A stretch of 13,115 bases of DNA from a virus, in UHGV virus genome UHGV-0040766; one strand, 5' to 3'. Shown piece after piece: positions 1,576 through 13,115 of the stretch (position 1 is the first letter of the stretch; every line of letters starts with the position of its first letter). A model generated the notes under the pieces. That model was not told where the DNA came from and made no database searches. It saw only the letters and a list, made by a program, of their open reading frames with translations. The translations under genes and the position numbers were made by a program.

Positions 1576-1764
1576 TCGAAGGCTGACCGAAGGGGTGGAT
1601 AGGGACGTTACGGGGGATGAAAACTATGGCTTGAATTTATACGAAGAAAGTGGCGATACCCCTCCTTCCCTTCCCACTTATACCTCCCACGAATTTTCTC
1701 TCTTATGTGGGCATAAACCTTCTCTCTGATAACGCTCAATACGGCGACTATTCCTGTGGGTGAA

Positions 1765-1885
1765 ATGGGTGGTTTGTTCTTTCTACCGGCATATGTGGTT
1801 TCGTTCTTCTTGAGGTGGTTCTTCTCTGTGTTTTCGTCAGGGTTGTTCTCGTTGTTTTGGTGATTGTTCTTCTCTGTGTATGGAG
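1765..1885 (+). repeat. degenerate tandem repeats of about 19-26 bp (GGTT(T/C)GTTCTTCT-like) at the start of a G+T-rich, A-poor tract (about 1740-2450)
   Basis: five successive units starting near 1768, 1795, 1815, 1840, 1860; a sampled 60-nt stretch (1801-1860) has 2 A residues on the plus strand. Confidence 0.45.
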
Positions 1886-2642
1886 TAATGGCAGGTGGGC
1901 GATTCCTTTCGTTATTGTATTTGAGTTGTTTGTCTTGAGAGCGTGAAAGGCTTTTGTGGTTATTTGTGTATTGAGTAATGGCGTTTCCCCGCGAATGTTC
2001 TGTTTCGTGTCTTTGGGGATTGAGGGAGTCCTTGCGGTAACAGGCTTCGTTAGAGTTTCAGTGGTTCTGGTGTTTATTCGCTGTTTGGGGAATGGCGTGT
2101 AGTGGGTATCGCATGTATGAATGTTTCGAGTTGCCTGTGAAAGTTAGGTTGGTTGTCCGGTAGCCTGGGAAGAAGAGGTGGGTCTTTTCAGTAGCCTGCC
2201 ATAAAGAGGTTGGTTGTTTTTGGGAATGTGGGTAATGGCGTCTCTGGGTTTCCTGTGGGTGTGGTTAGCTTGTTTTCTTGTGTCTGAAAACAACTTGTTT
2301 AGATGTCCAATATAACGCAACGGGAGCGCTTCTGAGCGTGTCTGTTTTTGGGTGGTATCACGAGTCGTTTTTGACGTTTTGGTCGCAGGGAGATGGATTC
2401 TGGTACGCTGGATTTGGGTATAAGAGATGGCGTGCGAAAACATCAACTTTTTAGACCAAATCAGGGGAAAGCGTTGACTTTACGTTGATGTGTTATTTAT
2501 TTGTTTTCTTATGGGTGTAATTGGCTTAAATGCCTTGTCACGCCTGGGATTGAGTGGGGTAGGGTGGTGGGGAAAGTGGCGATCAACGGACTCTTATAGA
2601 AATCCTCAATTTGTGACCGCCAATATCAACGAGCTGCAGCCG

Positions 2643-3212
2643 TTAGTTGTTCAGATAGGCATCCGGAACGCGCACATAAAAGTTTCTTTCGCCGGTCAGT
2701 TCCAGAGTAACGTTTATGTCGTTGCCGTTATCCAGCGTAGCCGTCGCTTTATAGAACTTGTCCGTCACCTTGTCCTGAATTGTCACCTTCATACATTTCG
2801 GCGCTGTGGTTCCGTTATTCTCTTTCAGAATGGTCGTTACGAGAGGACAAGCCGCTTCTTCAAGAGCAACCTCTTCCTGGTGTGGGATACCGATGAAGAT
2901 GTTACCAGCAAGCAACGCGACGATTACGATAAAAGGAAGTCGACTGCCTTTTGTAACGGTGGCACGTTTCCAGAGATAGACCGGAAGGAGAAATACTCCC
3001 CACAGGATGGCCGGTGGTTCATACCCTGCATCAGACAATGCCATTCTGTCAGCCACCAGAAAGCCGAGTCCAGCGACTCCACCTATCACTATTGCATAAT
3101 TCAAATACTCATCTGGCGGTGCTCCAAAGAAGAGAGGCAGTAAAGCTAGAAGCCACGCATAAGCATTATTCAGAGGTTTTGTTTGTTGGTTCTGGGTTTC
3201 CATCACATCCAT
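2643..3212 (-). CDS. hypothetical integral membrane protein (about 4 TM segments plus about 80-aa C-terminal soluble domain)
   Basis: ORF track 2643..3212; four hydrophobic stretches (AWLLALLPLFF, YAIVIGGVAGLGFLVA, AILWGVFLLPVYLW, LPFIVIVALLAGNIFIG); overlapping plus-strand ORF 2490..3143 judged spurious. Confidence 0.65.
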   Translation of the reverse strand: MDVMETQNQQTKPLNNAYAWLLALLPLFFGAPPDEYLNYAIVIGGVAGLGFLVADRMALSDAGYEPPAILWGVFLLPVYLWKRATVTKGSRLPFIVIVALLAGNIFIGIPHQEEVALEEAACPLVTTILKENNGTTAPKCMKVTIQDKVTDKFYKATATLDNGNDINVTLELTGERNFYVRVPDAYLNN

Positions 3213-3288
3213 TCCATCAGATTAAAAAGCGGTACTATGTTACCAATTTTCTTCGCTTATATGACATGATTACTCAACGAGTGGGCGA

Positions 3289-3609
3289 TCACCATTCCCA
3301 TGCAGGTAGCCCATCCACCAGCTCGGCGTCGCAATCGAAGTGAACCACGTCAAAGCCGTCATCCAGTATGGTCTGTATGTTGGAGATCGCCTCTTGGGAA
3401 ATGCCGTACTCACGCAGTTCTTCCTTCCAGTCATTCCCTCGCATTCCAGCACGAACAATCCAGCCGTACTGTGTACCGTGTACCCAATTCAACCCGCGAT
3501 CAGTAAGTGGGTCGAAGCAGGCAATGGGTAGCCGTTCTGAATCCGCTGCCGTTACGTGGGCGGTGCTGATCACCGCCGTCTTATACGATTCGGTGATTTT
3601 CAGCATCAT
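3289..3609 (-). CDS. hypothetical protein (106 aa)
   Basis: ORF track; start overlaps stop of upstream gene by 4 nt (ATGA), suggesting translational coupling. Confidence 0.6.
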   Translation of the reverse strand: MMLKITESYKTAVISTAHVTAADSERLPIACFDPLTDRGLNWVHGTQYGWIVRAGMRGNDWKEELREYGISQEAISNIQTILDDGFDVVHFDCDAELVDGLPAWEW

Positions 3610-3839
3610 GCCTTCTCCTTTGGAAACAGAATGTTGGCCGTGTCAGAAATGACATCCCAATTCACGCCGACGCTGGTGTCATGGCACTCTTTGATTTTTC
3701 GCAAAACCTGAACGCACTGTTCGTCAGTCAGGTCTGGTCGCACTTCACCTACATCTTCCTTGTGCCACATCACCATCAGCAGCGGCTCGTCTTCTGGGTA
3801 GTTCTCCAGCTTTTCGATGATGTCTTTTGCGGTTCCGAA
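3606..3839 (-). CDS. hypothetical small acidic protein (77 aa)
   Basis: ORF track 3606..3860 trimmed to ATG at 3837-3839 (MFGTAKDIIEKL...), which has AAGGAG 5 nt upstream; track start is TTG. Confidence 0.6.
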   Translation of the reverse strand, partial: FGTAKDIIEKLENYPEDEPLLMVMWHKEDVGEVRPDLTDEQCVQVLRKIKECHDTSVGVNWDVISDTANILFPKEKA

Positions 3840-3854
3840 CATGATCAACTCCTT

Positions 3855-3867
3855 AAACAATTTATTT
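3855..3867. promoter_or_regulatory. palindrome AAACA-ATT-TATTT, copy 4 (one mismatch)
   Basis: overlaps the region immediately 5' of the RBS of gene 3606-3839. Confidence 0.4.
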
Positions 3868-3905
3868 TCTTATTTGTGTTATTATCTCAAATAACAAAAG
3901 GTAGA

Positions 3906-3918
3906 AAACAAAATGTTT
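3906..3918. promoter_or_regulatory. palindrome AAACA-AAA-TGTTT, copy 5
   Basis: perfect palindrome between genes 3606-3839 and 3928-4194. Confidence 0.4.
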
Positions 3919-3927
3919 AAGGGATGA

Positions 3928-4194
3928 CTAGGTGAGTTTGAAGTCGTCTATGTCATCAACAAACTCCATATACCTGGCTTCGACACTCGACAATCTGATC
4001 AGATACGCAAGCCCGTAACTTAGTGAAGTGGGTTGCTCCAGCACAAATTCGAACCCATCCTCATGCGTTTTACCAAGCCAGAACCCCCCACCGTATTCTT
4101 TTTCACGTTGGAAGAAAACGAACTGTCCGGGTATTAGGTGCTTGAGTGCTTCGCCCCTATAGACGATCACATATTTAGAATTCTTGCTGCCCAT
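3928..4194 (-). CDS. hypothetical protein (88 aa)
   Basis: ORF track 3928..4251 trimmed to ATG at 4192-4194 (MGSKNSKYVIVYRGE...) with GAGG 8 nt upstream. Confidence 0.5.
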   Translation of the reverse strand: MGSKNSKYVIVYRGEALKHLIPGQFVFFQREKEYGGGFWLGKTHEDGFEFVLEQPTSLSYGLAYLIRLSSVEARYMEFVDDIDDFKLT

Positions 4195-4283
4195 TGCTCG
4201 CCTCGCAATACTGTACATATAAACAGTATTATTTATTACGGTACTGGTCAACTTTACGGGTTAATTGAATAACAAGATGGTGA

Positions 4284-4296
4284 AAACAATTTGTTT
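4284..4296. promoter_or_regulatory. palindrome AAACA-ATT-TGTTT, copy 6, in divergent intergenic region
   Basis: lies between divergently oriented genes 3928-4194 (-) and 4382-4585 (+). Confidence 0.45.
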
Positions 4297-4381
4297 TGGC
4301 ACTTGAGATTTTGCAAATCGCACCTACATGGAAAACGGCAATTTTTGAAACCTGATTTGACCCATGTGAAAGGAGGAAACG

Positions 4382-4585
4382 ATGAAGACCTATGATCGCA
4401 ACCGTAACGCTATCACTACCGGCAGCCGAGTGATGGTGGCAACGAATGGTGCAACGGGAGTCATCAAGGAAATCTGCGGAGAAGGCAAATCAGAAGAACA
4501 ATTACGCCGCTCTGACTGCGTGTCTATCGAAGGTGTGGAAGGTCTATTCTGCCCAATGGATTTGGTTCGCCTGGGGTTCCATTAA
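4382..4585 (+). CDS. hypothetical protein (67 aa)
   Basis: ATG at 4382 with strong RBS GAAAGGAGGAAACG immediately upstream; no family recognised. Confidence 0.65.
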   Translation: MKTYDRNRNAITTGSRVMVATNGATGVIKEICGEGKSEEQLRRSDCVSIEGVEGLFCPMDLVRLGFH

Positions 4586-4599
4586 TTTCACCATCTATA

Positions 4600-4612
4600 A
4601 AACAAATTGTTT
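4600..4612. promoter_or_regulatory. palindrome AAACA-AAT-TGTTT, copy 7, adjacent to terminator hairpin
   Basis: perfect palindrome, here at the 3' ends of two convergent genes; supplies the U-tract for the minus-strand transcript. Confidence 0.4.
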
Positions 4613-4633
4613 AAGGCCACAACTAGTGGCCTT
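4613..4633. terminator. hairpin between convergent genes (stem AAGGCCAC/GTGGCCTT, loop AACTA), likely terminator mainly for the minus-strand gene
   Basis: 8-bp perfect stem; on the minus-strand transcript it is followed by AAACAAUUUGUUUU. Confidence 0.45.
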
Positions 4634-4640
4634 ATCTGGC

Positions 4641-5339
4641 TTACGGAACAGCGGTAATCAGATCGCAAATGCCTGTTTTAGTTAAATCACTATTCAGCTT
4701 CTGAAAATTGGCATTCAGCATTGCGGTATGTATTCGATTCTCAAGTTCAAAGAAGAGACCGATCTTGCCCTCTTTGGCTGCCACCTTCTTCCAAATATTC
4801 ACCTGGTCATCTGCGATACGACTTGCGCAGGTGAACAAGAACGAACTCCCTCTGGGAAGGGATGTCGTGCTGTAGTATTCACCGTCAACTTCAATATACT
4901 TAGCTCGGAATGACTCCAGAGTTAGCTTTTTACCGCTCTCAGCCTGCTTTGTGTCTGCCTTGCTTGTCTTTTCCTGAACTTCAGGCTGTTTCTGCACAGG
5001 CTTTGGTGTCTCATTGACCACCGCAGTGCTGGCCGAACCATCCAAACTCTTGAGGCCATTAATTTGGATTAGATAAGCCAACTCCAGAGCCTTATCACCA
5101 GTGAGTTTTCCACGCATACTTACCCATTGACGCTGAACCGTCTTTAAGGCGTCTGCGTCCCCCGGGTTTGCTTTGAGTGCGTTGGAATAGGTAGAGCTAA
5201 GTTGTTCGTCTAATTTTGACAGGCGTTCGTTATCGCAGATTTTGTGTTCGATTTCTGCCGAAGCCTTTTGGCAGTCAAAGCTGGCTGCAAATACAGCCGG
5301 CGATGCCACCAACAATGATGCCAGTAGGATATTTTTCAT
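4641..5339 (-). CDS. periplasmic DUF1311 / lysozyme-inhibitor LprI-like protein with signal peptide (232 aa)
   Basis: ATG at 5337-5339 with GGAG 6 nt upstream; N-terminal MKNILLASLLVASPAVFA signal peptide; FDCQKASAEIEHKICDNERLSKLDEQLSSTY...QRQW pattern typical of DUF1311. Confidence 0.65.
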   Translation of the reverse strand: MKNILLASLLVASPAVFAASFDCQKASAEIEHKICDNERLSKLDEQLSSTYSNALKANPGDADALKTVQRQWVSMRGKLTGDKALELAYLIQINGLKSLDGSASTAVVNETPKPVQKQPEVQEKTSKADTKQAESGKKLTLESFRAKYIEVDGEYYSTTSLPRGSSFLFTCASRIADDQVNIWKKVAAKEGKIGLFFELENRIHTAMLNANFQKLNSDLTKTGICDLITAVP

Positions 5340-5377
5340 ATTCACTCCATAAATATAAAAGCGCCTGACTATAGCAC

Positions 5378-5593
5378 TTAACCAATTGCTTCTCTCATCT
5401 GATTGTGAAGCTCTTTCAGCCCATCACGTACCGCGTTCATGATACGTTCCAGGGATTGGTATCTGGGGTTTGGCACTGTTGGCCAACCGGCATACCACGG
5501 ATCGTCACCAAACAGACTCAGCAGTTCGTTACCGACACCGAAACAGCAGCAACTTTCTTTTACGTCATCAGCGTTTTCTGCCTCGTCCCACAT
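5378..5593 (-). CDS. hypothetical protein (71 aa)
   Basis: ORF track only; weak RBS; position between two minus-strand genes is compatible with an operon. Confidence 0.35.
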   Translation of the reverse strand: MWDEAENADDVKESCCCFGVGNELLSLFGDDPWYAGWPTVPNPRYQSLERIMNAVRDGLKELHNQMREAIG

Positions 5594-5827
5594 ATTGCGG
5601 GCCTGCTCTGCGTCGATTTCTCTCTCTCCCTGCGCAACTTTATGATTTCGGATTTGACGAAAAGCAGGTTTGCGTCGTTGTCATCGTCGACCGTACTGAA
5701 GTGGCACACTGAATTTGGCCGTCTGTAATGGGCAGATCCGGCAACTGTTTAAAAACATCCATCTGCTCATGGATACGCAGAAACCACCTTGCCAGCTCCA
5801 TCTGCTCACCGCGGGTGAGGAGATTAT

Positions 5828-6559
5828 TCAGCGGGGACTTAACAAAAGCGGAGACTCGCTCGACAAGCCGGCCAGTGAACCAACATCCCCCCAATTCTGG
5901 TGTGTCAGCGCCCCGATACTTACCACTCCAGGCAGCACTTCTTTGTGGTTGTGGTAGTGCCCGGACAACAATAAACGGAAGCCGATATCTTTCAGTTCCT
6001 GTGCGTCGATGCCGACATCGGGCATGGTGGGGATCGCTTTGTTGATTGAGGTATGTACAACAACATCATGGTTGTCACCATCCAGCCCGGAACGCAGCGT
6101 TTTGAGATCGCTGATAAGTTCTGCGTAGTTATTACGCCAGCTAATCAGATGGACGGTTACGTCGCCCATTTTGATGGAATGAGGACGTTTGCCGCAGACG
6201 ATTTCCACACCGATTGAGCGCAGAGAGGCTGCTGCATTGGCGCTGTATACGGAATCGTTGGTTTCGAGGTCGTGGTTGCCAGCCAGCATTACCACCTTGA
6301 GACCCAACTCTTTGATGATCCACTCGTAAGTTTCGGTCACGAAATGCAGAACGGAAGGTGATATAGCACCGCGAACATGGAAGGTATCACCAGCTACCAG
6401 CATGTTCTTACAGCCAGCAGCTTTCATCGCTTTGGCCGCCTCCTTCGTAGCGTCCAGTTGGATCTCCAGCCGAGAGTTAAGCCCGTCAGCGTTTGTTGTC
6501 GCAAAAGCATCCCAACGATGATAATGGGGATCTGATATTACCCCGTATGGCAATGTCAT
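5828..6559 (-). CDS. calcineurin-like metallophosphoesterase (243 aa)
   Basis: motifs SDPHYH, AGDTFH, GNHD and SGHYHNH in the canonical order; ATG at 6557-6559 with AAGGA 9 nt upstream. Confidence 0.75.
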   Translation of the reverse strand: MTLPYGVISDPHYHRWDAFATTNADGLNSRLEIQLDATKEAAKAMKAAGCKNMLVAGDTFHVRGAISPSVLHFVTETYEWIIKELGLKVVMLAGNHDLETNDSVYSANAAASLRSIGVEIVCGKRPHSIKMGDVTVHLISWRNNYAELISDLKTLRSGLDGDNHDVVVHTSINKAIPTMPDVGIDAQELKDIGFRLLLSGHYHNHKEVLPGVVSIGALTHQNWGDVGSLAGLSSESPLLLSPR

Positions 6560-6955
6560 GTGTCTTTTCCTTTGTGGTTATTTTGATACAAATTCTAAGC
6601 GTGCATAAGAGGCATACAACCCAGACAACACGGCACACAAAAGAATATAAAGGCACATGATAATAACAAAAAAATAAGTAAGTAAATACCTATCAGATAG
6701 GGCAGCAACGATTTCTAAACGTCACAAGCAATTTTATGAGAGCAGTCATTTACTGATGACAAGAAATGAAAAAGGAGAACGGACGGTGAAGTTGTGAGAT
6801 GACATTTACGGCGTTTGCGTGCGTCGTCTTCAAACGCATCCGTCGGCCACAGTTTCTGCTCTTGAATAAAATTCACTCATGCATTAATCCCTAAAGCTCT
6901 CAGTGTCTTTCTAAGACACCATATTTTATGCCCGGTAAAAAGCATGAGTTTGCCT

Positions 6956-7600
6956 TTAAAACGTCTCTGAGGGCTTCTGACGCGCTCTGCTAATGTCTAT
7001 TACCCCAGCTTTTGGACGAGGGTCTACAAGATTCAACTCTTCAGCACTGTGATACTCCGTGTCGAACTCCCGATCGACATGGCGAATGTAAATGGCTGTC
7101 AGAAGGCTGTTATCATTCAGAAAGTGTCCGTAAGATTTGCGAATTACTTCGCCAACCTTCTCAATCTTCTCTCCGCCCATGCAGAGATGGTTAAATCGGC
7201 TGTGTTTCCGCAGCATTTCATCCACCGGGCCTGAGTAGACCTTATCAACTCTCCCGAACCGGATGATATTTCCGGTATCAGCTTCAACCAGACAAACGAG
7301 TTTGCCAGGTTCGACACGATCTCGCCAAGTGACACCAGAGCGCAGTGTGTTGAAGTAGGGAGCATCCAATCCGATGATCGGTTTACGAAATGCTAGTAGT
7401 GGCACGTAACGTATGCAGCTGTTTAGGTGGAAATGCGCACCGGCGTCGTGGAGTTTAAGCCGGGTTTCGTTAATCGGGCATTTCGAAGCAATGCCGCAAA
7501 GGTCGCAGAGCAACTTCTGTTTGTTCAGACTAGTGTTTGATTCAATGGTGTAGGAGCCATCTTCAAGACGGCGAACCCAGCGCGTGCGTTTAAGATCCAT
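6956..7600 (-). CDS. hypothetical protein (214 aa) with an N-terminal Cys/His cluster
   Basis: ORF track; CDLCGIASKCPINE...HDAGAHFH...C cluster; no family recognised. Confidence 0.55.
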   Translation of the reverse strand: MDLKRTRWVRRLEDGSYTIESNTSLNKQKLLCDLCGIASKCPINETRLKLHDAGAHFHLNSCIRYVPLLAFRKPIIGLDAPYFNTLRSGVTWRDRVEPGKLVCLVEADTGNIIRFGRVDKVYSGPVDEMLRKHSRFNHLCMGGEKIEKVGEVIRKSYGHFLNDNSLLTAIYIRHVDREFDTEYHSAEELNLVDPRPKAGVIDISRARQKPSETF

Positions 7601-7676
7601 AATTCTTGTTCAAATAATTTTGTCCGGGGCAACGATAACGGATAAGGCGCACCGGAGTTTGCAAATGCCTGTTTAC

Positions 7677-7901
7677 TTATTCACTTTATTCACAGGCCCG
7701 ATCCAATATTTAGATCCCCAGAGAGATCCTACAGAAGATCAAAAGAGATCCCCGATCGTCTCCAGCGCTTGCGGTTACTGGCTTGAGAAGGGGTTACTAT
7801 CCACTATAGGGAGCAAAATAACCACTGTAGAGAGCATAATAACCGCTATGAAGAGCAAAACAACCTCTCTGGAGAGTAGTCGGTATCCACTGTAGTGAGT
7901 A
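7677..7901 (+). other. replication origin module 1 (P1 oriR / RepFIB type): two tandem DnaA boxes, six GATC sites, five iterons
   Basis: TTATTCACT at 7677-7685 and TTATTCACA at 7686-7694; GATC at 7700, 7713, 7725, 7737, 7747, 7754; five roughly 21-bp-spaced iterons 7797-7901 (e.g. ATAACCACTGTAGAGAGCA). Confidence 0.7.
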
Positions 7902-8060
7902 GGAGACAATGTTTTAACTGGATAACTCCGAGCCTGTTTTTCTGCGGCAGATGGCTGATATTCTTGGAAATATTGTAAATTTTGCGTTGCGGCGTGTTTA
8001 TTTCGATCACACATTATCCCCAGAAGGGGAGTGATGCCTGATTTTGTAATTATCTGATTT

Positions 8061-8305
8061 TTATACACAGGCCCGATCCAGTAATTCAGATCCCTGTTAG
8101 AACCAAAGAGAACCACAAAGACCCAAAGAGATCCCCGGCCCTTGCAAACCGTTGTGCCACATGGCTTTAGAGGTTATCGATATCCACTATAGTGAGAAGA
8201 ACAACCACTATAGAGAGTAAATCAACCACTATGGAGAGTAGAAAAACCGCTGTAGGCGGTAGGATAACCACTGTGATGGGTGCTACTATCCACTGTAATC
8301 AGTAA
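8061..8305 (+). other. replication origin/control module 2, immediately upstream of repA: one DnaA box, three GATC sites, six iterons
   Basis: TTATACACA at 8061-8069; GATC at 8075, 8089, 8130, with AGAACC/AGACCC variants where module 1 has AGATCC; six iterons 8180-8304. Confidence 0.7.
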
Positions 8306-8342
8306 AGGCACCCAAGCCGTCGAATAAAAAGAGACATTTGGA

Positions 8343-9398
8343 ATGAGCGTAAACGACAATAAAAACATTGCGATAAGCGAAGCATTTTCCGAAACAGACA
8401 AAAAGACCGGCGAAGTTGTTACGTTAGTTCCTAACACCAACAACACAGTTCAGCCTGTTGCTCTGATGCGTCTTGGTCTCTTCGTTCCGACGCTGAAATC
8501 GACATCCAGGGGTAGAAAGGGGCAAATGGTCTCTATGGACGCCTCCGCTGAACTCAAACAGCTGTCTCTGGCCAAAGCCGAAGGGTACGAGGATATAAGG
8601 ATTGCTGGTCTTCGTCTTGATATGGATAACGATTTCAAAACATGGGTGGGCATCATCCACGCGTTCGCCAAGCACAAGGTTGTTGGTGACACCGTCACGT
8701 TGCCGTTCGTCGAGTTCGTCAGACTTTGTGGCATACCAACAGCCAGATCGTCCGCGAAGTTACGTAAGCGCCTGGACAGCTCTCTAAGTCGTATCGCCAC
8801 AAACACCATCTCATTCCGCAGCAAAGGCTCTGAAGAGTATTACGTTACGCACCTTGTGCAGACGGCAAAGTACAGTACCAAGAATGACACGGTCGAACTG
8901 AAGGCCGATCCTAAGATTTTCGAACTTTACCAGTTCGACAAAAAGGTGCTTTTGCAACTTCGGGCCATCAACGAACTCTCCAGAAAGGAATCCGCGCAGG
9001 CGCTCTACACCTTCATTGAAAGTTTGCCACCAGACCCGGCGCCAATCTCATTGGCTCGCTTACGCGCCAGACTTAACTTAACCAGCCGCACCATTACCCA
9101 GAATGCGACAGTCAGGAAGGCGATGGAGCAGCTGCGAGAGATCGGCTATCTCGATTACACTGAAGTGAAACGCGGCAGCTCGGTCTACTTCGTCATCCAC
9201 TATAGACGGCCGAAGTTACGTTCGGCACTGCCGCCATCTATGGCTACGCCTGAAGAGCCAGAAGATATCTTGCCAGGTGATGATCCGGAGGACATTATCG
9301 ATGTTGCCCCTGAAGAAAAAGACGGGGAAATGGTCATGTTGAGCAAGGAAGAACTGGCGATTCTCGAAGAGCTGCGCAAGGCAAAGGCTCGCAAATAG
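8343..9398 (+). CDS. repA: iteron-binding replication initiator, RepFIB / P1 RepA family (351 aa)
   Basis: translation closely matches my recollection of F-plasmid RepFIB initiator (e.g. [69 protein letters not shown]); flanked by iteron arrays. Confidence 0.9.
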
Positions 9399-9400
9399 CC

Positions 9401-10003
9401 CAACCACTGTAGAGAGTAAAAAGGCTCACTATCTACTGTAGTGAGCCTTTTTGTTTATCGGAAATGCAATATCCACTGTAGTGAGTAAAAGAAACCGAAG
9501 AATAACCACTGTAGGCAGTGCGCACAAATCGCGAAGTAAATGTTAGTGGTTGCAAACATAGATAAAACAAGGGCTGAGAGGTTAGCGGTCACTGGGTATC
9601 TCTGTTAAGTCTACTCTCTACAGCGGTTATCGTCGCTCTCCTCATTGTTGACTATCCACTGTGAAGAGCAGAATTGGCTGACTTGACCTCTATCCACTGT
9701 AGTGAGTGGATATCCGTTTAAAACAGCGAAGATTTACTCTCCATAGTGGATATCCGCTGGAGGGGGCATTCCATCACTCTCTATAGTGGTTGTTTGTAGT
9801 CAGTGAACGCCTGTTTACTCACTACAGTGTATAGCGACCCCGATAATCACCAATTTACTCACTACAGTGGATAGTTGATATCGTGGCAGAGGGTTTGCTC
9901 ACTACAGTGGTTGGGGTGCATACCTGAAGGGTGTTCTACTCGCTACAGTGGTTATGAGCCGGATTCACACGCGGTGAGCTGGCTACTCACCGCAGTGGAT
10001 AGT
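9401..10003. repeat. downstream iteron array (incA-like copy-control locus): about 14 iterons, the first five or six forward, the rest inverted
   Basis: forward units at 9401, 9431, 9469, 9502, 9651, 9690; inverted units (TACTC(A/T)CTACAGTGG-like) at 9612, 9736, 9775, 9816, 9856, 9897, 9936, 9984. Confidence 0.8.
9419..9458 (+). terminator. rho-independent-type terminator of repA, built on an iteron-like sequence
   Basis: 10-bp perfect stem AAAGGCTCAC / GTGAGCCTTT (9420-9429, 9441-9450), followed by TTTTGTTT, beginning 21 nt after the repA stop. Confidence 0.55.
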
Positions 10004-10007
10004 GTTA

Positions 10008-10223
10008 TCAGTGGATTTTCTTCAGCAGACCCCAGAGTGTCCCGGCCTTCGTTGCGAGCTTACCTGTTTCCGGATCGTACATGTGCCATTCACGTCGCTG
10101 GTGGACAATATACCCATCTTCACGTTCCAGTCGTTCCAGTACGCCGGACTGCTTGAACCCTTTGGCACGCCAGTAGCCGCTTGTTTTTTCGATTTCCAGA
10201 CCTGTCAGTGTAACCGCCATCAA
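10008..10223 (-). CDS. hypothetical protein (71 aa), last gene of a three-gene cluster
   Basis: ORF track; start overlaps upstream reading frame by 4 nt (ATGA); stop is 4 nt from the last iteron. Confidence 0.55.
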   Translation of the reverse strand: MMAVTLTGLEIEKTSGYWRAKGFKQSGVLERLEREDGYIVHQRREWHMYDPETGKLATKAGTLWGLLKKIH

Positions 10224-10554
10224 CTAATCTCCTTGCAGTCATCGAAAAGGTAGCTGTCGTTCTTCGCGTGAACGCCGTATACATCACCCGATTTGTTGTA
10301 AACGAATCTATCTTTACCTACGCCAGATAGTTCGCCGTTACGTTTAGTGAGAAACGGGGAAGACAGGACGCGATCATCGCGTACCACATAAAACTGTTCG
10401 CCACGGTCCACAACCATCGCGCCGTAATTAGCTTTAACGACGTTGCGGATCAGGCCGTTTTTCGCTTCGACCACAAACATTTCGCACTCATAGACATGTG
10501 TGTCCGCAAAGACGGGGAGAGTGAGCAGCGCCAGTACCAGGCTGTTTTCTTCAT
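10220..10554 (-). pseudogene. secreted hypothetical protein with a 1-nt frameshift in the signal-peptide codons
   Basis: ATG at 10552-10554 reads MKKTAWYWRCSLSP and stops after 33 codons; adding one base in the A4 run (plus 10545-10548) gives MKKNSLVLALLTLPVFA-DTHVYECEMFVVEAKNG..., in frame with track ORF 10220..10480. Confidence 0.5.
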
Positions 10555-10730
10555 GCCACGACTCCTTTGAAAACGCCTAATGCTGAGTCGAAGACCAGTA
10601 CTACGGCCAGCGCATTGATCATCACATCATTAACAGGCGCCAGCGCTTTACGGATTGCCCCTGTGAAGATGCAGTCGAGCACAAAGGCTATCGAGATAAT
10701 AAGTAACGTGATATCTAATAAAATTTTCAT
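10551..10730 (-). CDS. small hydrophobic membrane protein (59 aa), below the ORF-track size cutoff
   Basis: own translation: MKILLDITLLIISIAFVLDCIFTGAIRKALAPVNDVMINALAVVLVFDSALGVFKGVVA; stop TGA overlaps the ATG of the next gene; TTGAGT-17-TATATA promoter-like sequence upstream; weak RBS. Confidence 0.5.
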   Translation of the reverse strand: MKILLDITLLIISIAFVLDCIFTGAIRKALAPVNDVMINALAVVLVFDSALGVFKGVVA

Positions 10731-10769
10731 GATAGGTAAATGCTAACTTATATATTTTTGCTGTAAATA

Positions 10770-11045
10770 TCACTCAAAAGTGCTGATACCCAAAATGAGC
10801 TCAAGATGGGCCGCGTCTTCATCGCTTACCAGCATTGTGTCGTCGACGTACCAGCAGCTACCGTTGTGCCAACAAACACCGTCATCATCGATATAAATAG
10901 AATCCGCATCCATTCCTGTGTATTCAACTAGATTGCGTTCAATTGCCGCTTGAATTTCTTCATCGTTCAGCCCGTCGCACTTGATCATGAACAACGGGTA
11001 AACGTCATAGTCGGTACTAGATGAAATGCGAACCAAAGTCTTCAT
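10770..11045 (-). CDS. hypothetical acidic protein (91 aa)
   Basis: ORF track 10770..11108 trimmed to ATG at 11043-11045 (MKTLVRISSS...) with AAGGAGAAAG 6 nt upstream. Confidence 0.55.
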   Translation of the reverse strand: MKTLVRISSSTDYDVYPLFMIKCDGLNDEEIQAAIERNLVEYTGMDADSIYIDDDGVCWHNGSCWYVDDTMLVSDEDAAHLELILGISTFE

Positions 11046-11225
11046 GTGCTTTCTCCTTGTTGGTAAGTACTTATCTATCTTAATGGGCGCTATAAGGCGC
11101 ACAATCATTGTGTTCAGGCTGGTGGAAAGAACTTCTCCAGCGTGTGGTTGATAGCCTTATCAATGTGCATCAGGTGCCAGACGACCATATCTTTGCTTCC
11201 AATGCCGCGAGTGTAGATGAAGTGG

Positions 11226-11534
<309 letters not shown>

Positions 11535-11539
11535 CTAAG

Positions 11540-11545
11540 AGTCAA
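11540..11545 (-). promoter_or_regulatory. -35 hexamer TTGACT at the right end of the IS110-family element (half of a circle-junction promoter)
   Basis: TTGACT lies 14 nt from the element end; joined to the left end this gives TTGACT, 17-bp spacer, AATAAT. Confidence 0.45.
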
Positions 11546-12618
11546 GCTGTTATCGGGATACTGTTGATCCGCCTGTTTTGATTGCGCAGTAACGTGTAAA
11601 CTTCGCGGGAGATATATCGCTTTAGACAGCGTATCGCTTCCATTTTTGTATGTCCTTCGGCTACACGCCTGGCGACATATTCCTTTGTTTTTGCGTCAGT
11701 TCGTAAGCGTCCGATGGCGATGATGTGAAGTGCACTATTTGCAGCACGATCTCCACCACGATTAAGTCGGTAACGGTTCGTTTTTCCAGAAGAAACGGGG
11801 ACCGGGCTGACACCACACAGTGCCGCAAATCCTGATTCTGATCTTAACCGTTGAGGATTGTCTCCGGCAGTGATCAGCAACTGTGAAGCGCTTTCGTATC
11901 CGATAGCATTACGTTTAATCAGCTCAGGTGCCAACTCGTCGACAATTGCCGCAATCATGACATCCAGATCAGCGATTTCGTCATGTAACTCGAGATAGCG
12001 TCGGGCAAGGGACTTTAATGAAATGCGATAAACGTTGGTTACATTGCGGTATTCACTGGCATCAGGTCTCCAGGAACCCAGGGTCCTGATGAGCTGCATG
12101 CGCGTCATATTTCTGAGCTGTTCACGTAATTCATCCGGGGCAGAGATAATATTTGAATGGATAATCTGGAGAGCGACTCTGCGGGCTGATATTGCTGTTT
12201 TTCGGCAAGTTTTTAATACCCGCAGGGACTCAATCATGCCATCACGCGTTTTGGGAGTAACTGTCCTGATGCCTGAGAATGCTGCATGAGCGGCACATTC
12301 AGCATCAATTGTGTCACTTTTACCCCGTTTGCGTCGCTCCATCCGGTCTGGAGCAGTCACCTCAAGAACCTCTAACCCGGCGTTCTGAAAATAACGAAGC
12401 AAACCGGAACCATAGGTACCTGTGCACTCAACACCAATTCGCTTTAATGTCCCAAACGAGGTCATCCATGCCAGCATCTGCCGGTAACCTTGTCGTGTTG
12501 TGGAGAAATACTGAGTCCCAAGGACTTTATTGTTCTGATCTACGACAGCGGCAACGTGCAAATCTTTATGTGTATCCACGCCACCCACAACGGCAGCTTT
12601 GGTAACTTTATCAACCAT
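11542..12618 (-). CDS. IS110-family DEDD transposase / recombinase (358 aa)
   Basis: N-terminal VGGVDTHKDLHV, ECTGTYGSG and TDTIDAECAAHAA motifs (DEDD/RuvC-like) plus C-terminal FAALCGVSPVPVSSGK segment; AGGAG 8 nt upstream of ATG at 12616-12618. Confidence 0.9.
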   Translation of the reverse strand: MVDKVTKAAVVGGVDTHKDLHVAAVVDQNNKVLGTQYFSTTRQGYRQMLAWMTSFGTLKRIGVECTGTYGSGLLRYFQNAGLEVLEVTAPDRMERRKRGKSDTIDAECAAHAAFSGIRTVTPKTRDGMIESLRVLKTCRKTAISARRVALQIIHSNIISAPDELREQLRNMTRMQLIRTLGSWRPDASEYRNVTNVYRISLKSLARRYLELHDEIADLDVMIAAIVDELAPELIKRNAIGYESASQLLITAGDNPQRLRSESGFAALCGVSPVPVSSGKTNRYRLNRGGDRAANSALHIIAIGRLRTDAKTKEYVARRVAEGHTKMEAIRCLKRYISREVYTLLRNQNRRINSIPITA

Positions 12619-12890
12619 GACAGAGCTCCTGTGAGGAAACAGAGTTGAATCTCCAGACAGATAACCCGGACAGGACAGTAACGAGACAAGCCGTCAGGCC
12701 CTTCTTGAGTCACGCGCATCGGTGAGGAGATGCCTCGCATGAAGGCGCTTCCGGCAACCGACGGGTCCAGGGCAGGACACAAAAGGTCGATCGCTGTGTG
12801 AGTCAGGATGCGGGAAGGTCTTCACTGCATCAGTAATCACACCAATCTGGTTAAACGGCAAACTAAGTGGTGGTAAAGACTGACATCGGC
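12619..12890 (-). ncRNA. candidate bridge RNA (guide ncRNA) encoded in the 5' non-coding arm of the IS110-family element; exact ends unknown
   Basis: arm contains CACAGCGATC (identical to reconstructed target across the crossover) and CTGCCCTG (reverse complement of right target flank) 13 nt apart; also AGAAGGGC matching the element's right end; no plausible ORF. Confidence 0.5.
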
Positions 12891-12896
12891 ATTATT
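12891..12896 (-). promoter_or_regulatory. -10 hexamer AATAAT at the left end of the IS110-family element (other half of the circle-junction promoter)
   Basis: element begins AGTAATAATGCC on the minus strand; in the integrated state no good -35 lies upstream. Confidence 0.45.
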
Positions 12897-12899
12897 ACT

Positions 12900-13097
12900 A
12901 TCGCTGTGGAACATCACCCCGCCGGGCTTACCACGGGTTTCCCATGCCATTTCCAGCGATTTCATGGTGAGCCTGCTGTCCGGCGAGAACGACATGGCCC
13001 AGCCCACTGGTTTTCTTGCGAACAGGTCGAGAACAACGGCGAGGTACGCCCAGCGCTTACCCGTCCAGAGTAGAGTAAGAGGCAGGGCGTAGTCGGA
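12900..13097 (-). pseudogene. IS3-family orfB, internal fragment proximal to the nested insertion, with an in-frame stop upstream
   Basis: minus-strand SDYALPLTLLWTGKRWAYLAVVLDLFARKPVGWAMSFSPDSRLTMKSLEMAWETRGKPGGVMFHSD; in-frame TAG at 13098-13100. Confidence 0.7.
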
Positions 13098-13115
13098 CTA
13101 TTTCCCTGCCTCTCC

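What the first reader, a model, noticed from the sequence alone, without database searches (positions are those of the whole stretch)
10220..10554. Secreted-protein gene disabled, or phase-switched, by a 1-nt frameshift in its signal-peptide codons
Seen: from ATG at 10552-10554 the frame reads MKKTAWYWRCSLSP and terminates, whereas one extra base in the A4 run (plus 10545-10548) gives a textbook signal peptide MKKNSLVLALLTLPVFA followed by the long ORF to 10220. No alternative in-frame start exists upstream in the long frame. Inference: a recent inactivating mutation, a sequencing error at a homopolymer, or slippage-based switching; the internal ATG (MFVVEAKNG...) could still give a cytoplasmic, non-secreted form.
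Basis: seen in the sequence. Interest (0 to 1): 0.45.

Follow-up and report, generated by a model that had tools for sequence, protein, structure and literature searches.

The report
Private frameshift in a phage-plasmid gene
A small, conserved secreted-protein gene on an SSU5/pHCM2/pMT1-type phage-plasmid is broken here by one missing base that no other known copy lacks; it is most likely a sequencing/assembly error or, failing that, a very recent ordinary knockout, and it is not a genetic switch.

Summary
All close orthologues (E. coli, Shigella, Y. pestis pMT1) also have A4. They differ from the window by one extra C in the next run (minus strand ACAGCCCTGG versus window ACAGCCTGG; plus strand GGG versus GG at 10540-10541). 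The intact product is a 111-aa protein, MKKTALVLALLTLPVFA|DTH… (WP_023135694.1, phrog_2077, function unknown). It has a conserved Sec-type signal peptide, two conserved cysteines and a confidently predicted small beta-barrel, and it evolves under purifying selection (dN/dS 0.07-0.32).

The deletion is the window's only private difference from its nearest relatives over 13,115 nt. None of 106 plasmid records, 28 complete E. coli genomes or 6 viral/metagenome contigs carries it.

It lies in a 3-nt homopolymer that overlaps a Dcm (CCWGG) site. Those are the two leading classes of nanopore consensus error in Enterobacteriaceae, and only 1.8% of the window's runs have this context.

My weighting:
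- Assembly artefact: about 0.55.
- Recent null mutation: about 0.38.
- Phase variation or programmed frameshifting: effectively excluded (run of 3, no length polymorphism, runs absent in divergent orthologues).

This is ordinary and of low interest.

The parts
10220..10554 (-). Frameshifted copy (335 nt) of a conserved 336-nt gene. The intact gene encodes a 111-aa secreted small beta-barrel protein (WP_023135694.1, phrog_2077).
   Evidence: Relatives annotate an intact 336-nt CDS at this position. Alignment; phrog_2077 match at E 7e-63; dN/dS 0.07-0.32.
10540..10541 (-). Site of the lesion: GG on the plus strand (CC on the coding strand) where all relatives have GGG/CCC. It lies in codons 5-6 (Ala5-Leu6) and overlaps the Dcm motif CCAGG at plus 10537-10541.
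   Evidence: This is the only private difference of the window in 13,115 nt.
10545..10548 (-). It is not the lesion: close orthologues have A4 too.
10552..10554 (-). Authentic ATG start, overlapping the upstream gene's TGA (ATGA), which implies translational coupling.
   Evidence: the CDS starts at the same place in relatives.
10562..10567 (-). Shine-Dalgarno AAGGAG, 7 nt upstream of the ATG, conserved in close orthologues.
10450..10554 (-). The out-of-frame 34-aa ORF that is actually read from the authentic start in this window (MKKTAWYWRC…KTA, stop TGA 10450-10452).
   Evidence: This peptide is absent from the protein collection.
10478..10480 (-). Internal ATG (Met26 of the intact protein), the start of the residual 86-aa ORF. 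It has only a GAG at -9 to -7 as a ribosome-binding match.
   Evidence: Met26 is not conserved in distant relatives.
10551..10730 (-). Upstream 59-aa hydrophobic (membrane-type) protein gene (WP_023135695.1, phrog_2535), intact.
10008..10220 (-). Downstream 70-aa gene (WP_001711118.1, phrog_804). Its ATG overlaps the stop of the frameshifted gene (TGATG), and it has its own AAGGAG 8 nt upstream.
10770..11045 (-). First gene of the four-gene cluster, 91 aa (WP_095526246.1, phrog_2209), intact.
8343..9398 (+). repA (IncFIB, Rep3-type) of the phage-plasmid. It gives the context that identifies the element.

Best explanation
The locus is the 336-nt gene for a conserved 111-aa exported protein of SSU5-supergroup phage-plasmids (pHCM2/pMT1 relatives). 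The protein has a Sec-type signal peptide MKKTALVLALLTLPVFA, with cleavage predicted after Ala17. Its mature part is an all-beta barrel of about 94 aa with one conserved cysteine pair. It is the third gene of a tightly overlapped four-gene cluster next to the RepFIB replicon.

In this window one C of a CCC run in codons 5-6 is missing. Ribosomes starting at the authentic ATG therefore make a 34-aa nonsense peptide and stop at 10450-10452. As written, the sequence encodes a null allele.

I consider it most likely that the missing base is not biological. I read it as a residual consensus (basecalling or assembly-polishing) error in the source record, so that the real plasmid carries the intact gene.

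Shown: the gene, its conservation, the exact lesion, its uniqueness and its sequence context. Inferred: that the cause is technical, and that the protein is periplasmic. The protein's function is unknown. The barrel fold only loosely resembles periplasmic lysozyme-inhibitor and ligand-binding barrels.
For: 1. The deletion is the window's only private difference.
   - Window 8343-13115 equals Shigella plasmid CP058829.1 except for this base.
   - Window 1629-8342 is 100% identical to that plasmid.
   - The whole window is collinear with pB379_2, with 1 mismatch and 2 one-base gaps. The mismatch and the other gap are private to the relatives.
   - So there are zero private substitutions but one private indel.
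2. The allele is seen nowhere else.
   - 0 of 106 plasmid records and 0 of 28 complete E. coli genomes match a 61-nt probe at 99% or more; all listed E. coli-type matches are 98.4%, which is one gap.
   - All 6 viral/metagenome pattern matches are the 32-nt CCC form.
   - The intact protein is on at least 1000 contigs.
3. The context fits a known error class.
   - The run is a homopolymer of 3 that overlaps a Dcm motif. Only 12 of 676 runs of 3 or more in the window (1.8%) do so.
   - Wick et al. 2019 (PMC6591954) report that about 70% of nanopore consensus errors in an Enterobacteriaceae genome lay in CCAGG/CCTGG motifs. Length errors in homopolymers of 3 or more came next. Polishing removed only about 70-80% of the Dcm errors.
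4. An independent read-derived contig (Logan SRR12298795, L024) has a different indel, an inserted A, in the very same run. That is what a site-specific technical problem would produce.
5. Deposited relatives show other homopolymer-length discrepancies, for example pB379_2 has T4 versus T5 at about 10751-10755.
6. The gene is under purifying selection, and its signal peptide and cysteines are kept even at about 30% identity.
Against: - No reads are available, so the technical origin is an inference.
- Only 1 of the window's 22 Dcm motifs is affected. The source cannot be a raw old-basecaller nanopore assembly; it would have to be a polished one with a residual error.
- The paper cited does not say what fraction of Dcm-site errors are deletions.
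- The gene contains longer runs (A5, two C4, two T4) that a pure homopolymer-error process would hit first.
- Real disruptions of this gene do occur:
  - a non-homopolymer T deletion in the draft assembly GCA_053362835.1;
  - the fixed 210-nt deletion in S. Typhi pHCM2;
  - frameshifted or fused products P0020, P0021, P0005, P0010 and P0012.
  A genuine knockout is therefore entirely plausible.
Confidence: 0.55

Rival explanations
1. The deletion is a genuine, very recent loss-of-function mutation. Replication slippage removed one C of the CCC run in this plasmid lineage. That abolishes export and synthesis of the 111-aa protein and leaves a pseudogene that has not yet accumulated other changes. 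The neighbouring genes continue to be expressed, because the downstream gene has its own AAGGAG.
For: - The frameshift is unambiguous in the sequence.
- The gene is dispensable for plasmid maintenance. S. Typhi pHCM2 carries a fixed 210-nt deletion that removes the signal peptide and the first 27 mature residues, and its product is on at least 1000 contigs.
- Other independent disrupted alleles exist, including one in a non-homopolymer context in a draft E. coli assembly (L026), plus P0020/P0021.
- Only one of the window's 22 Dcm motifs is affected, so there is no sign of a generally error-prone assembly.
Against: - There are zero private substitutions in 13,115 nt but one private indel.
- The allele is absent from all other sequences examined.
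- The position coincides with the two commonest nanopore consensus-error contexts.
- The family is under purifying selection.
Confidence: 0.38
2. The gene is phase-variable: slipped-strand mispairing in the A4 or C2/C3 run reversibly switches the exported protein on and off, as at a contingency locus.
For: The lesion is a +/-1 change in a mononucleotide run at the 5' end of a gene for an exported protein, which is the usual place for such switches. A second indel occurs in the same run in L024.
Against: - The runs are only 3-4 nt. Known homopolymeric switches need roughly 7 or more, which I state from established knowledge of contingency loci.
- OFF alleles are essentially absent. The 61-nt probe found 0 shared alleles in 134 records, and all pattern hits are CCC.
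- The L024 change is an inserted A inside the C run, not a run-length change.
- Divergent orthologues have different runs or none (K. oxytoca AAACTAGCCC; E. coli CT01 and Cronobacter none) while keeping the protein. The tract is therefore not conserved as a device.
Confidence: 0.03
3. The full-length protein is still made in this window, by programmed -1 ribosomal frameshifting or transcriptional slippage near the A4 run.
For: A -1 shift between codons 3 and 6 would restore the frame, and an A-rich stretch (AAG AAA ACA) is present.
Against: - There is no X XXY YYZ slippery heptamer.
- A4 is too short for transcriptional slippage.
- All orthologues encode the protein in a single frame, so no recoding signal has been selected.
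- The exact lesion is private.
Confidence: 0.01

Closest known systems
WP_023135694.1 and its orthologues (WP_002227818.1 in Y. pestis pMT1, WP_016051670.1 in Enterobacter, the Salmonella phage SSU5 homologue): phrog_2077, 'hypothetical protein'
   Same: Same gene, same position in the same four-gene cluster beside repA. The DNA is 99.9% identical to the E. coli/Shigella copies apart from the missing base.
   Different: Those copies are intact (336 nt, 111 aa). The window has CC instead of CCC in codons 5-6 and so encodes only a 34-aa nonsense peptide from the authentic start.
S. Typhi pHCM2 allele (WP_000859650.1, 101 aa)
   Same: It is another natural allele of the same gene that has lost its signal peptide. 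It shows the exported form is dispensable for the plasmid.
   Different: The mechanism differs: a 210-nt in-frame deletion between two GGCGCGATGGTT repeats. This fuses the N-terminal half of the upstream membrane protein to residues 45-111. It is fixed in a lineage (at least 1000 contigs), whereas the window's allele is private.
Residual nanopore consensus errors at Dcm (CCWGG) motifs and homopolymers of 3 or more in Enterobacteriaceae assemblies (Wick, Judd & Holt 2019, PMC6591954)
   Same: The lesion is a length change of a 3-nt homopolymer that overlaps CCAGG/CCTGG. It is isolated in otherwise identical sequence.
   Different: The sequencing platform of the source is unknown. Only 1 of 22 Dcm motifs in the window is affected. 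No read evidence is available.
Homopolymeric-tract contingency loci (slipped-strand phase variation of surface and secreted proteins, e.g. in Neisseria, Haemophilus, Campylobacter)
   Same: A +/-1 change in a mononucleotide run near the 5' end of a gene for an exported protein.
   Different: The tract is only 3 nt, it shows no population polymorphism, and it is not conserved among orthologues.
Small periplasmic beta-barrel proteins: PliC/MliC/PhiA/ACP lysozyme inhibitors, YceI-like and lipocalin-like binders, the Cap15 barrel
   Different: There is no sequence-level relationship: Pfam, NCBIfam and PADLOC give nothing, and the PDB profile search gives nothing relevant. Identities are 4-13%. Foldseek against PDB gives nothing at E <= 0.001. 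The resemblance is generic to small barrels.

Membership tests
phrog_2077 / WP_023135694.1 orthologue group (SSU5-supergroup phage-plasmid small ORF) | Full-length sequence match to the family profile | tested here: met
   The repaired product matches phrog_2077 over residues 1-110 of 111, E 7.4e-63. It is 99% identical to P0001 and identical to P0044.
phrog_2077 / WP_023135694.1 orthologue group (SSU5-supergroup phage-plasmid small ORF) | Conserved synteny: third gene of an overlapped four-gene cluster next to repA | tested here: met
   The same order and the same 4-nt and 1-nt overlaps occur in E. coli, Shigella, Y. pestis, Enterobacter, Salmonella and Klebsiella plasmids.
phrog_2077 / WP_023135694.1 orthologue group (SSU5-supergroup phage-plasmid small ORF) | Intact single reading frame of about 111 codons | tested here: not met
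   The window lacks one C in codons 5-6, so the frame from the ATG ends after 34 codons. As written, it is a pseudogene copy of the family.
Sec-dependent, signal peptidase I-cleaved exported protein | Positively charged n-region, hydrophobic h-region of about 10-15 residues, small residues at -3/-1, no lipobox | tested here: met
   The n-region is MKK (+2). The h-region is TALVLALLTLPVF, whose best 10-residue Kyte-Doolittle mean is 2.69. V-F-A precedes D18, with Ala17 invariant in close relatives. An A-x-A-like site is kept in distant ones. The first Cys is at +7 of the mature chain, with no L-x-x-C lipobox. This is a rule-based check only; no SignalP was available.
Sec-dependent, signal peptidase I-cleaved exported protein | Experimental export or cleavage | not testable with these tools
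   This needs a PhoA/Bla fusion or N-terminal sequencing.
Phase-variable contingency locus (homopolymeric tract) | Long mononucleotide tract (typically 7 nt or more) within the 5' coding region or promoter | tested here: not met
   The tracts are A4 and C3/C2.
Phase-variable contingency locus (homopolymeric tract) | Tract-length polymorphism among closely related sequences, with both ON and OFF alleles | tested here: not met
   None of 106 plasmid records or 28 E. coli genome records shares the OFF allele. All 6 pattern hits are CCC.
Phase-variable contingency locus (homopolymeric tract) | Tract conserved among orthologues | tested here: not met
   K. oxytoca has A3 + C3. E. coli CT01 and Cronobacter have neither run.
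Programmed ribosomal frameshift / transcriptional slippage gene | Slippery site, and the two-frame arrangement conserved in orthologues | tested here: not met
   There is no X XXY YYZ heptamer around codons 2-6. All orthologues are in a single frame.
MliC/PliC-type periplasmic lysozyme inhibitors | Match to the family profile (Pfam MliC and related) | tested here: not met
   No Pfam family matches even at E <= 1. NCBIfam gives none.
MliC/PliC-type periplasmic lysozyme inhibitors | Eight-stranded periplasmic beta-barrel fold | tested here: inconclusive
MliC/PliC-type periplasmic lysozyme inhibitors | Lysozyme binding or inhibition | not testable with these tools
   This needs a biochemical assay.
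SSU5-supergroup phage-plasmid (SSU5_pHCM2 / pMT1 groups of Pfeifer et al. 2021, PMC7969092) | Backbone homology to SSU5, pHCM2 and pMT1 | tested here: met
   The 801-nt locus matches 287 IncFIB-type plasmids, including Y. pestis pMT1 and S. Typhi pHCM2. The protein is found in phage SSU5 and relatives. All four cluster proteins are in PHROGs. The group definition was read. Phage structural genes lie outside this window and were not examined.

The most novel reading that the evidence does not exclude
The 5' end of this gene may be a recurrent target of inactivation rather than the site of a random accident. Four independent alleles remove or disable the signal peptide:
- the window's C deletion;
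- an A insertion in the same run in SRR12298795;
- a T deletion 14 nt downstream in GCA_053362835.1;
- the pHCM2 deletion.

This could reflect selection in some hosts against exporting the barrel protein. Alternatively it could reflect an indel hotspot linked to Dcm methylation and very-short-patch repair at CCCTGG.
Probability: 0.07. Interest if true: 0.35.

Novelty: already known. Interest (0 to 1): 0.08.

Why it matters
It matters little biologically. At most, one plasmid has lost, or appears through an assembly error to have lost, one small accessory protein of unknown function.

Practically, it is a useful caution in two ways:
- A repair that restores a plausible signal peptide can still be the wrong repair. 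Here A5 gives MKKNSL…, while the true sequence is MKKTAL… via C3.
- Isolated one-base indels at Dcm-overlapping short homopolymers in enterobacterial assemblies should be treated as suspect before a pseudogene or a phase switch is called.

The underlying protein family is a minor open annotation target. It is a narrow, conserved, exported beta-barrel found in SSU5-type phage-plasmids and phages.

Tried and rejected
- **A5 repair.** Rejected by orthologue alignment and by the absence of MKKNSLVL… from about 15 billion proteins.
- **General sloppiness of the window's assembly.** Rejected: there is no other private indel or substitution in 13,115 nt.
- **Search for the same allele elsewhere.**
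  - The 61-nt probes in plasmids and E. coli genomes found none.
  - The N{1,4} pattern scan gave 0 hits in genome contigs, 4 in viral contigs and 2 in metagenome contigs, all CCC.
  - The 34-aa peptide is not in the protein collection.
- **Search through the truncated 86-aa product**. This found other lesions, not the window's. Two of the four contigs were only contig edges. The search is biased towards lesions upstream of Met26, so I draw no statistical conclusion about clustering.
- **Functional assignment.**
  - Pfam, NCBIfam and PADLOC gave nothing for the 111-aa protein. A weak PADLOC hit of the 59-aa protein to type IV Cas5 (E 0.0013) looks like hydrophobic-segment noise and was dismissed.
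  - The PDB profile search gave only irrelevant weak hits.
  - The exhaustive profile search found only 25 representatives, all of the same small family.
  - The afdb50 library was unavailable.
- **Promoter/terminator scan.** At chance level.
- **Non-coding reading of the long ORF.** Rejected by dN/dS and family conservation.

Full report
**What is in the sequence**

On the minus strand, an ATG at 10552-10554 overlaps the TGA of an upstream 59-aa gene (ATGA). It is preceded by AAGGAG (10567-10562) with a 7-nt spacer. From this ATG the frame reads MKKTAWYWRCSLSPSLRTHMSMSAKCLWSKRKTA and stops at TGA 10450-10452.

The -1 frame is open from TAG 10579-10577 to TGA 10220-10222. Before the internal ATG at 10478-10480 it contains no ATG, GTG or TTG.

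**Where the missing base is**

The window belongs to the IncFIB pHCM2/pMT1-type plasmid family. An 801-nt query around the locus matches 287 plasmid records (Enterobacter, Yersinia, Escherichia, Salmonella, Citrobacter and others) and 45 E. coli plasmids. Every relative fetched annotates an intact 336-nt, 111-aa CDS here.

Base-level alignment shows that the E. coli, Shigella and Y. pestis copies read ATGAAGAAAACAGCCCTGG. They have A4 just like the window, followed by CCC where the window has CC. On the plus strand the lesion is therefore GGG to GG at 10540-10541, not a loss from the T4/A4 run at 10545-10548.

The authentic protein begins MKKTALVLALLTLPVFA. That exact 111-aa sequence is on at least 1000 contigs.

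**Is the long frame a gene, and what kind?**

- The repaired product matches phrog_2077 over its full length at E 7e-63. Its three neighbours match phrog_2209, phrog_2535 and phrog_804, all of unknown function.
- Homologues occur in true phages, including SSU5, Cyrano, CMS-2020a and Klebsiella phages. This fits the SSU5 supergroup of phage-plasmids defined by Pfeifer et al. 2021 (PMC7969092).
- Pairwise dN/dS is 0.07-0.32, for both the mature part and the signal-peptide codons.
- The family is narrow: 22 clusters at 90% identity, and 25 representatives in an exhaustive profile search of 1.84 billion proteins.
- Even at about 30% identity, members keep a basic N-terminus, a hydrophobic core, an A-x-A-like site, invariant Cys24 and near-invariant Cys107.
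- By rule-based criteria the N-terminus is a Sec/SPase I signal peptide. It has MKK, a 13-residue hydrophobic core (Kyte-Doolittle mean 2.69), V-F-A before D18 and no lipobox.
- An AlphaFold2 model (pLDDT 87.5; 93 or more over most of the mature part) gives a small all-beta barrel of about ten strands.
- Foldseek against PDB gives nothing significant. Against viral models it finds other phage 'lipoprotein' or uncharacterised barrels.
- Pfam, NCBIfam, PADLOC and a PDB profile search give nothing.

My conclusion is that this is a conserved, exported, disulfide-containing small barrel of unknown function. The 'lysozyme inhibitor' label carried by one UniRef entry is not supported at sequence level. 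It is only weakly compatible at fold level.

**How unusual the allele is**

The window is collinear over all 13,115 nt with E. coli pB379_2, with 1 mismatch and 2 one-base gaps. Over 8343-13115 it differs from Shigella plasmid CP058829.1 only by this base. Over 1629-8342 it is identical to that plasmid. The single mismatches against pB379_2 (position 1510) and pXJW9B263-1 (position 6614), and the T-run gap against pB379_2, are private to those records. The deletion is thus the window's only private difference.

A 61-nt probe centred on the deletion found no record at 99% or more among 106 plasmid records and 28 complete E. coli genomes. All listed E. coli-type matches were 98.4%, which corresponds to the one gap. 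A pattern that allows one to four bases at the run gave no hit in the species-representative genomes. It gave four viral and two metagenome contigs, all with the 32-nt CCC form.

**Real or technical?**

The run overlaps a Dcm motif (plus CCAGG 10537-10541). Only 12 of the window's 676 homopolymer runs of 3 or more (1.8%) overlap a Dcm motif, and only 0.8% of its bases lie in one.

Wick et al. 2019 (PMC6591954) report that, with default nanopore basecallers, about 70% of consensus errors in an enterobacterial genome lay in CCAGG/CCTGG. Length errors in homopolymers of 3 or more came next, and polishing removed only about 70-80% of the Dcm errors. More generally, DNA modification induces nanopore read errors (PMC11610603, abstract as listed). 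Residual homopolymer indels also persist in long-read assemblies (PMC8495745).

An independent read-derived contig (Logan SRR12298795) carries a different indel in the same run, CAGCCACTGG.

The case for a residual consensus error therefore rests on three things: one private indel with no private substitution, this specific context, and purifying selection on the family.

Several points weigh against it. Only 1 of 22 Dcm motifs is affected. The gene has longer runs that were spared. I have no reads. Genuine disruptions of this gene also exist:
- a T deletion in a non-homopolymer context in the draft assembly GCA_053362835.1;
- frameshifted, fused or C-terminally replaced products P0005, P0010, P0012, P0020 and P0021;
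- the S. Typhi pHCM2 allele, which is fixed. There a 210-nt in-frame deletion between two GGCGCGATGGTT copies fuses the upstream membrane-protein gene to residues 45-111.

I put the artefact reading at about 0.55 and a real, very recent null mutation at about 0.38.

**Consequences if the deletion is real**

The authentic start gives a 34-aa nonsense peptide. The internal ATG has only a GAG at -9 to -7, and ribosomes that terminate 28 nt beyond it run across it. Met26 is not conserved in distant relatives.

An 86-aa product would lack the signal peptide, invariant Cys24 and part of strand 1. A functional cytoplasmic isoform is therefore unlikely; this step is inference. The downstream 70-aa gene loses its TGATG coupling but has its own AAGGAG 8 nt upstream, so polarity should be limited; this too is inference.

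**Phase variation and recoding**

The tracts are 3-4 nt, and no length polymorphism exists among relatives. Divergent orthologues keep the protein without the runs: K. oxytoca reads AAACTAGCCC, and E. coli CT01 and Cronobacter have none. There is no slippery heptamer, and orthologues are single-frame. Both ideas are rejected.

**Verdict**

This is an ordinary, private one-base deletion in a known though uncharacterised phage-plasmid gene. It is most probably an assembly artefact and otherwise a fresh pseudogene.

Noticed in passing
L021 (S. Typhi pHCM2, NZ_CP029905.1) 368-673 versus L018 (S. Saintpaul plasmid) 372-883: In pHCM2, a 210-nt in-frame deletion between two copies of GGCGCGATGGTT fuses the N-terminal 33 residues of the upstream 59-aa membrane protein to residues 45-111 of the barrel protein (101-aa WP_000859650.1). 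The product is on at least 1000 contigs. A 9-nt in-frame deletion is also present in the downstream 70-aa gene.
   Followed up: partly
L024 (Logan SRR12298795) about 690-705; L026 (GCA_053362835.1) about 1690-1720: Two further independent frameshifts lie in the signal-peptide codons of the same gene. One is an A inserted inside the same C run (CAGCCACTGG). The other is a T deleted from GGCGCTGCTC, 14 nt downstream. They were found through the 86-aa truncated product, so the ascertainment is biased.
   Followed up: partly
window 7795-8303, 9399-9707 and 9610-10002: Arrays of about 19-21-nt iterons (consensus near TATCCACTGTAGTGAGT) flank repA on both sides. The distal array is in inverted orientation and ends 6 nt from the last gene of the four-gene cluster. 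This is a typical RepFIB origin/incompatibility architecture, and it explains the recurring 'HYSGY' peptides in spurious ORFs.
   Followed up: partly
window about 10751-10755 (intergenic, between the 91-aa and 59-aa genes): The T5 run here is T4 in E. coli pB379_2 only. This is another single-base homopolymer discrepancy among otherwise identical deposited plasmids.
   Followed up: no
window 11226-11495 and 11542-12618: An IS3-family transposase remnant (C-terminal integrase core only) sits next to an intact IS110-family transposase (WP_000227970.1). Relatives differ here: in pXJW9B263-1 and S56 the remnant is followed by a type I restriction R subunit instead. The region upstream of the four-gene cluster is therefore a rearrangement hotspot.
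   Followed up: no
window 5378-6559: Pseudogenes shared with the relatives: a C-terminally truncated metallophosphoesterase/SbcD-like gene (5828-6559) and a 'frameshifted, incomplete' hypothetical gene (about 5378-5700). In pXJW9B263-1 an IS3 element is additionally inserted at window about 6080.
   Followed up: no
window about 1100-2600: This stretch of about 1.5 kb has no annotated gene in the near-identical relatives (between WP_202196157.1 and WP_072663008.1 in pB379_2). Only spurious-looking ORFs appear in the six-frame list. It was not examined.
   Followed up: no
window 4641-5345: This gene is annotated in relatives as a 'lysozyme inhibitor LprI family protein' (WP_023135690.1), so the element carries at least one other exported protein with a lysozyme-inhibitor-type label. 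A Foldseek viral hit of the barrel model to an LprI-like phage RB49 protein was weak (E 3e-4, TM 0.46).
   Followed up: no
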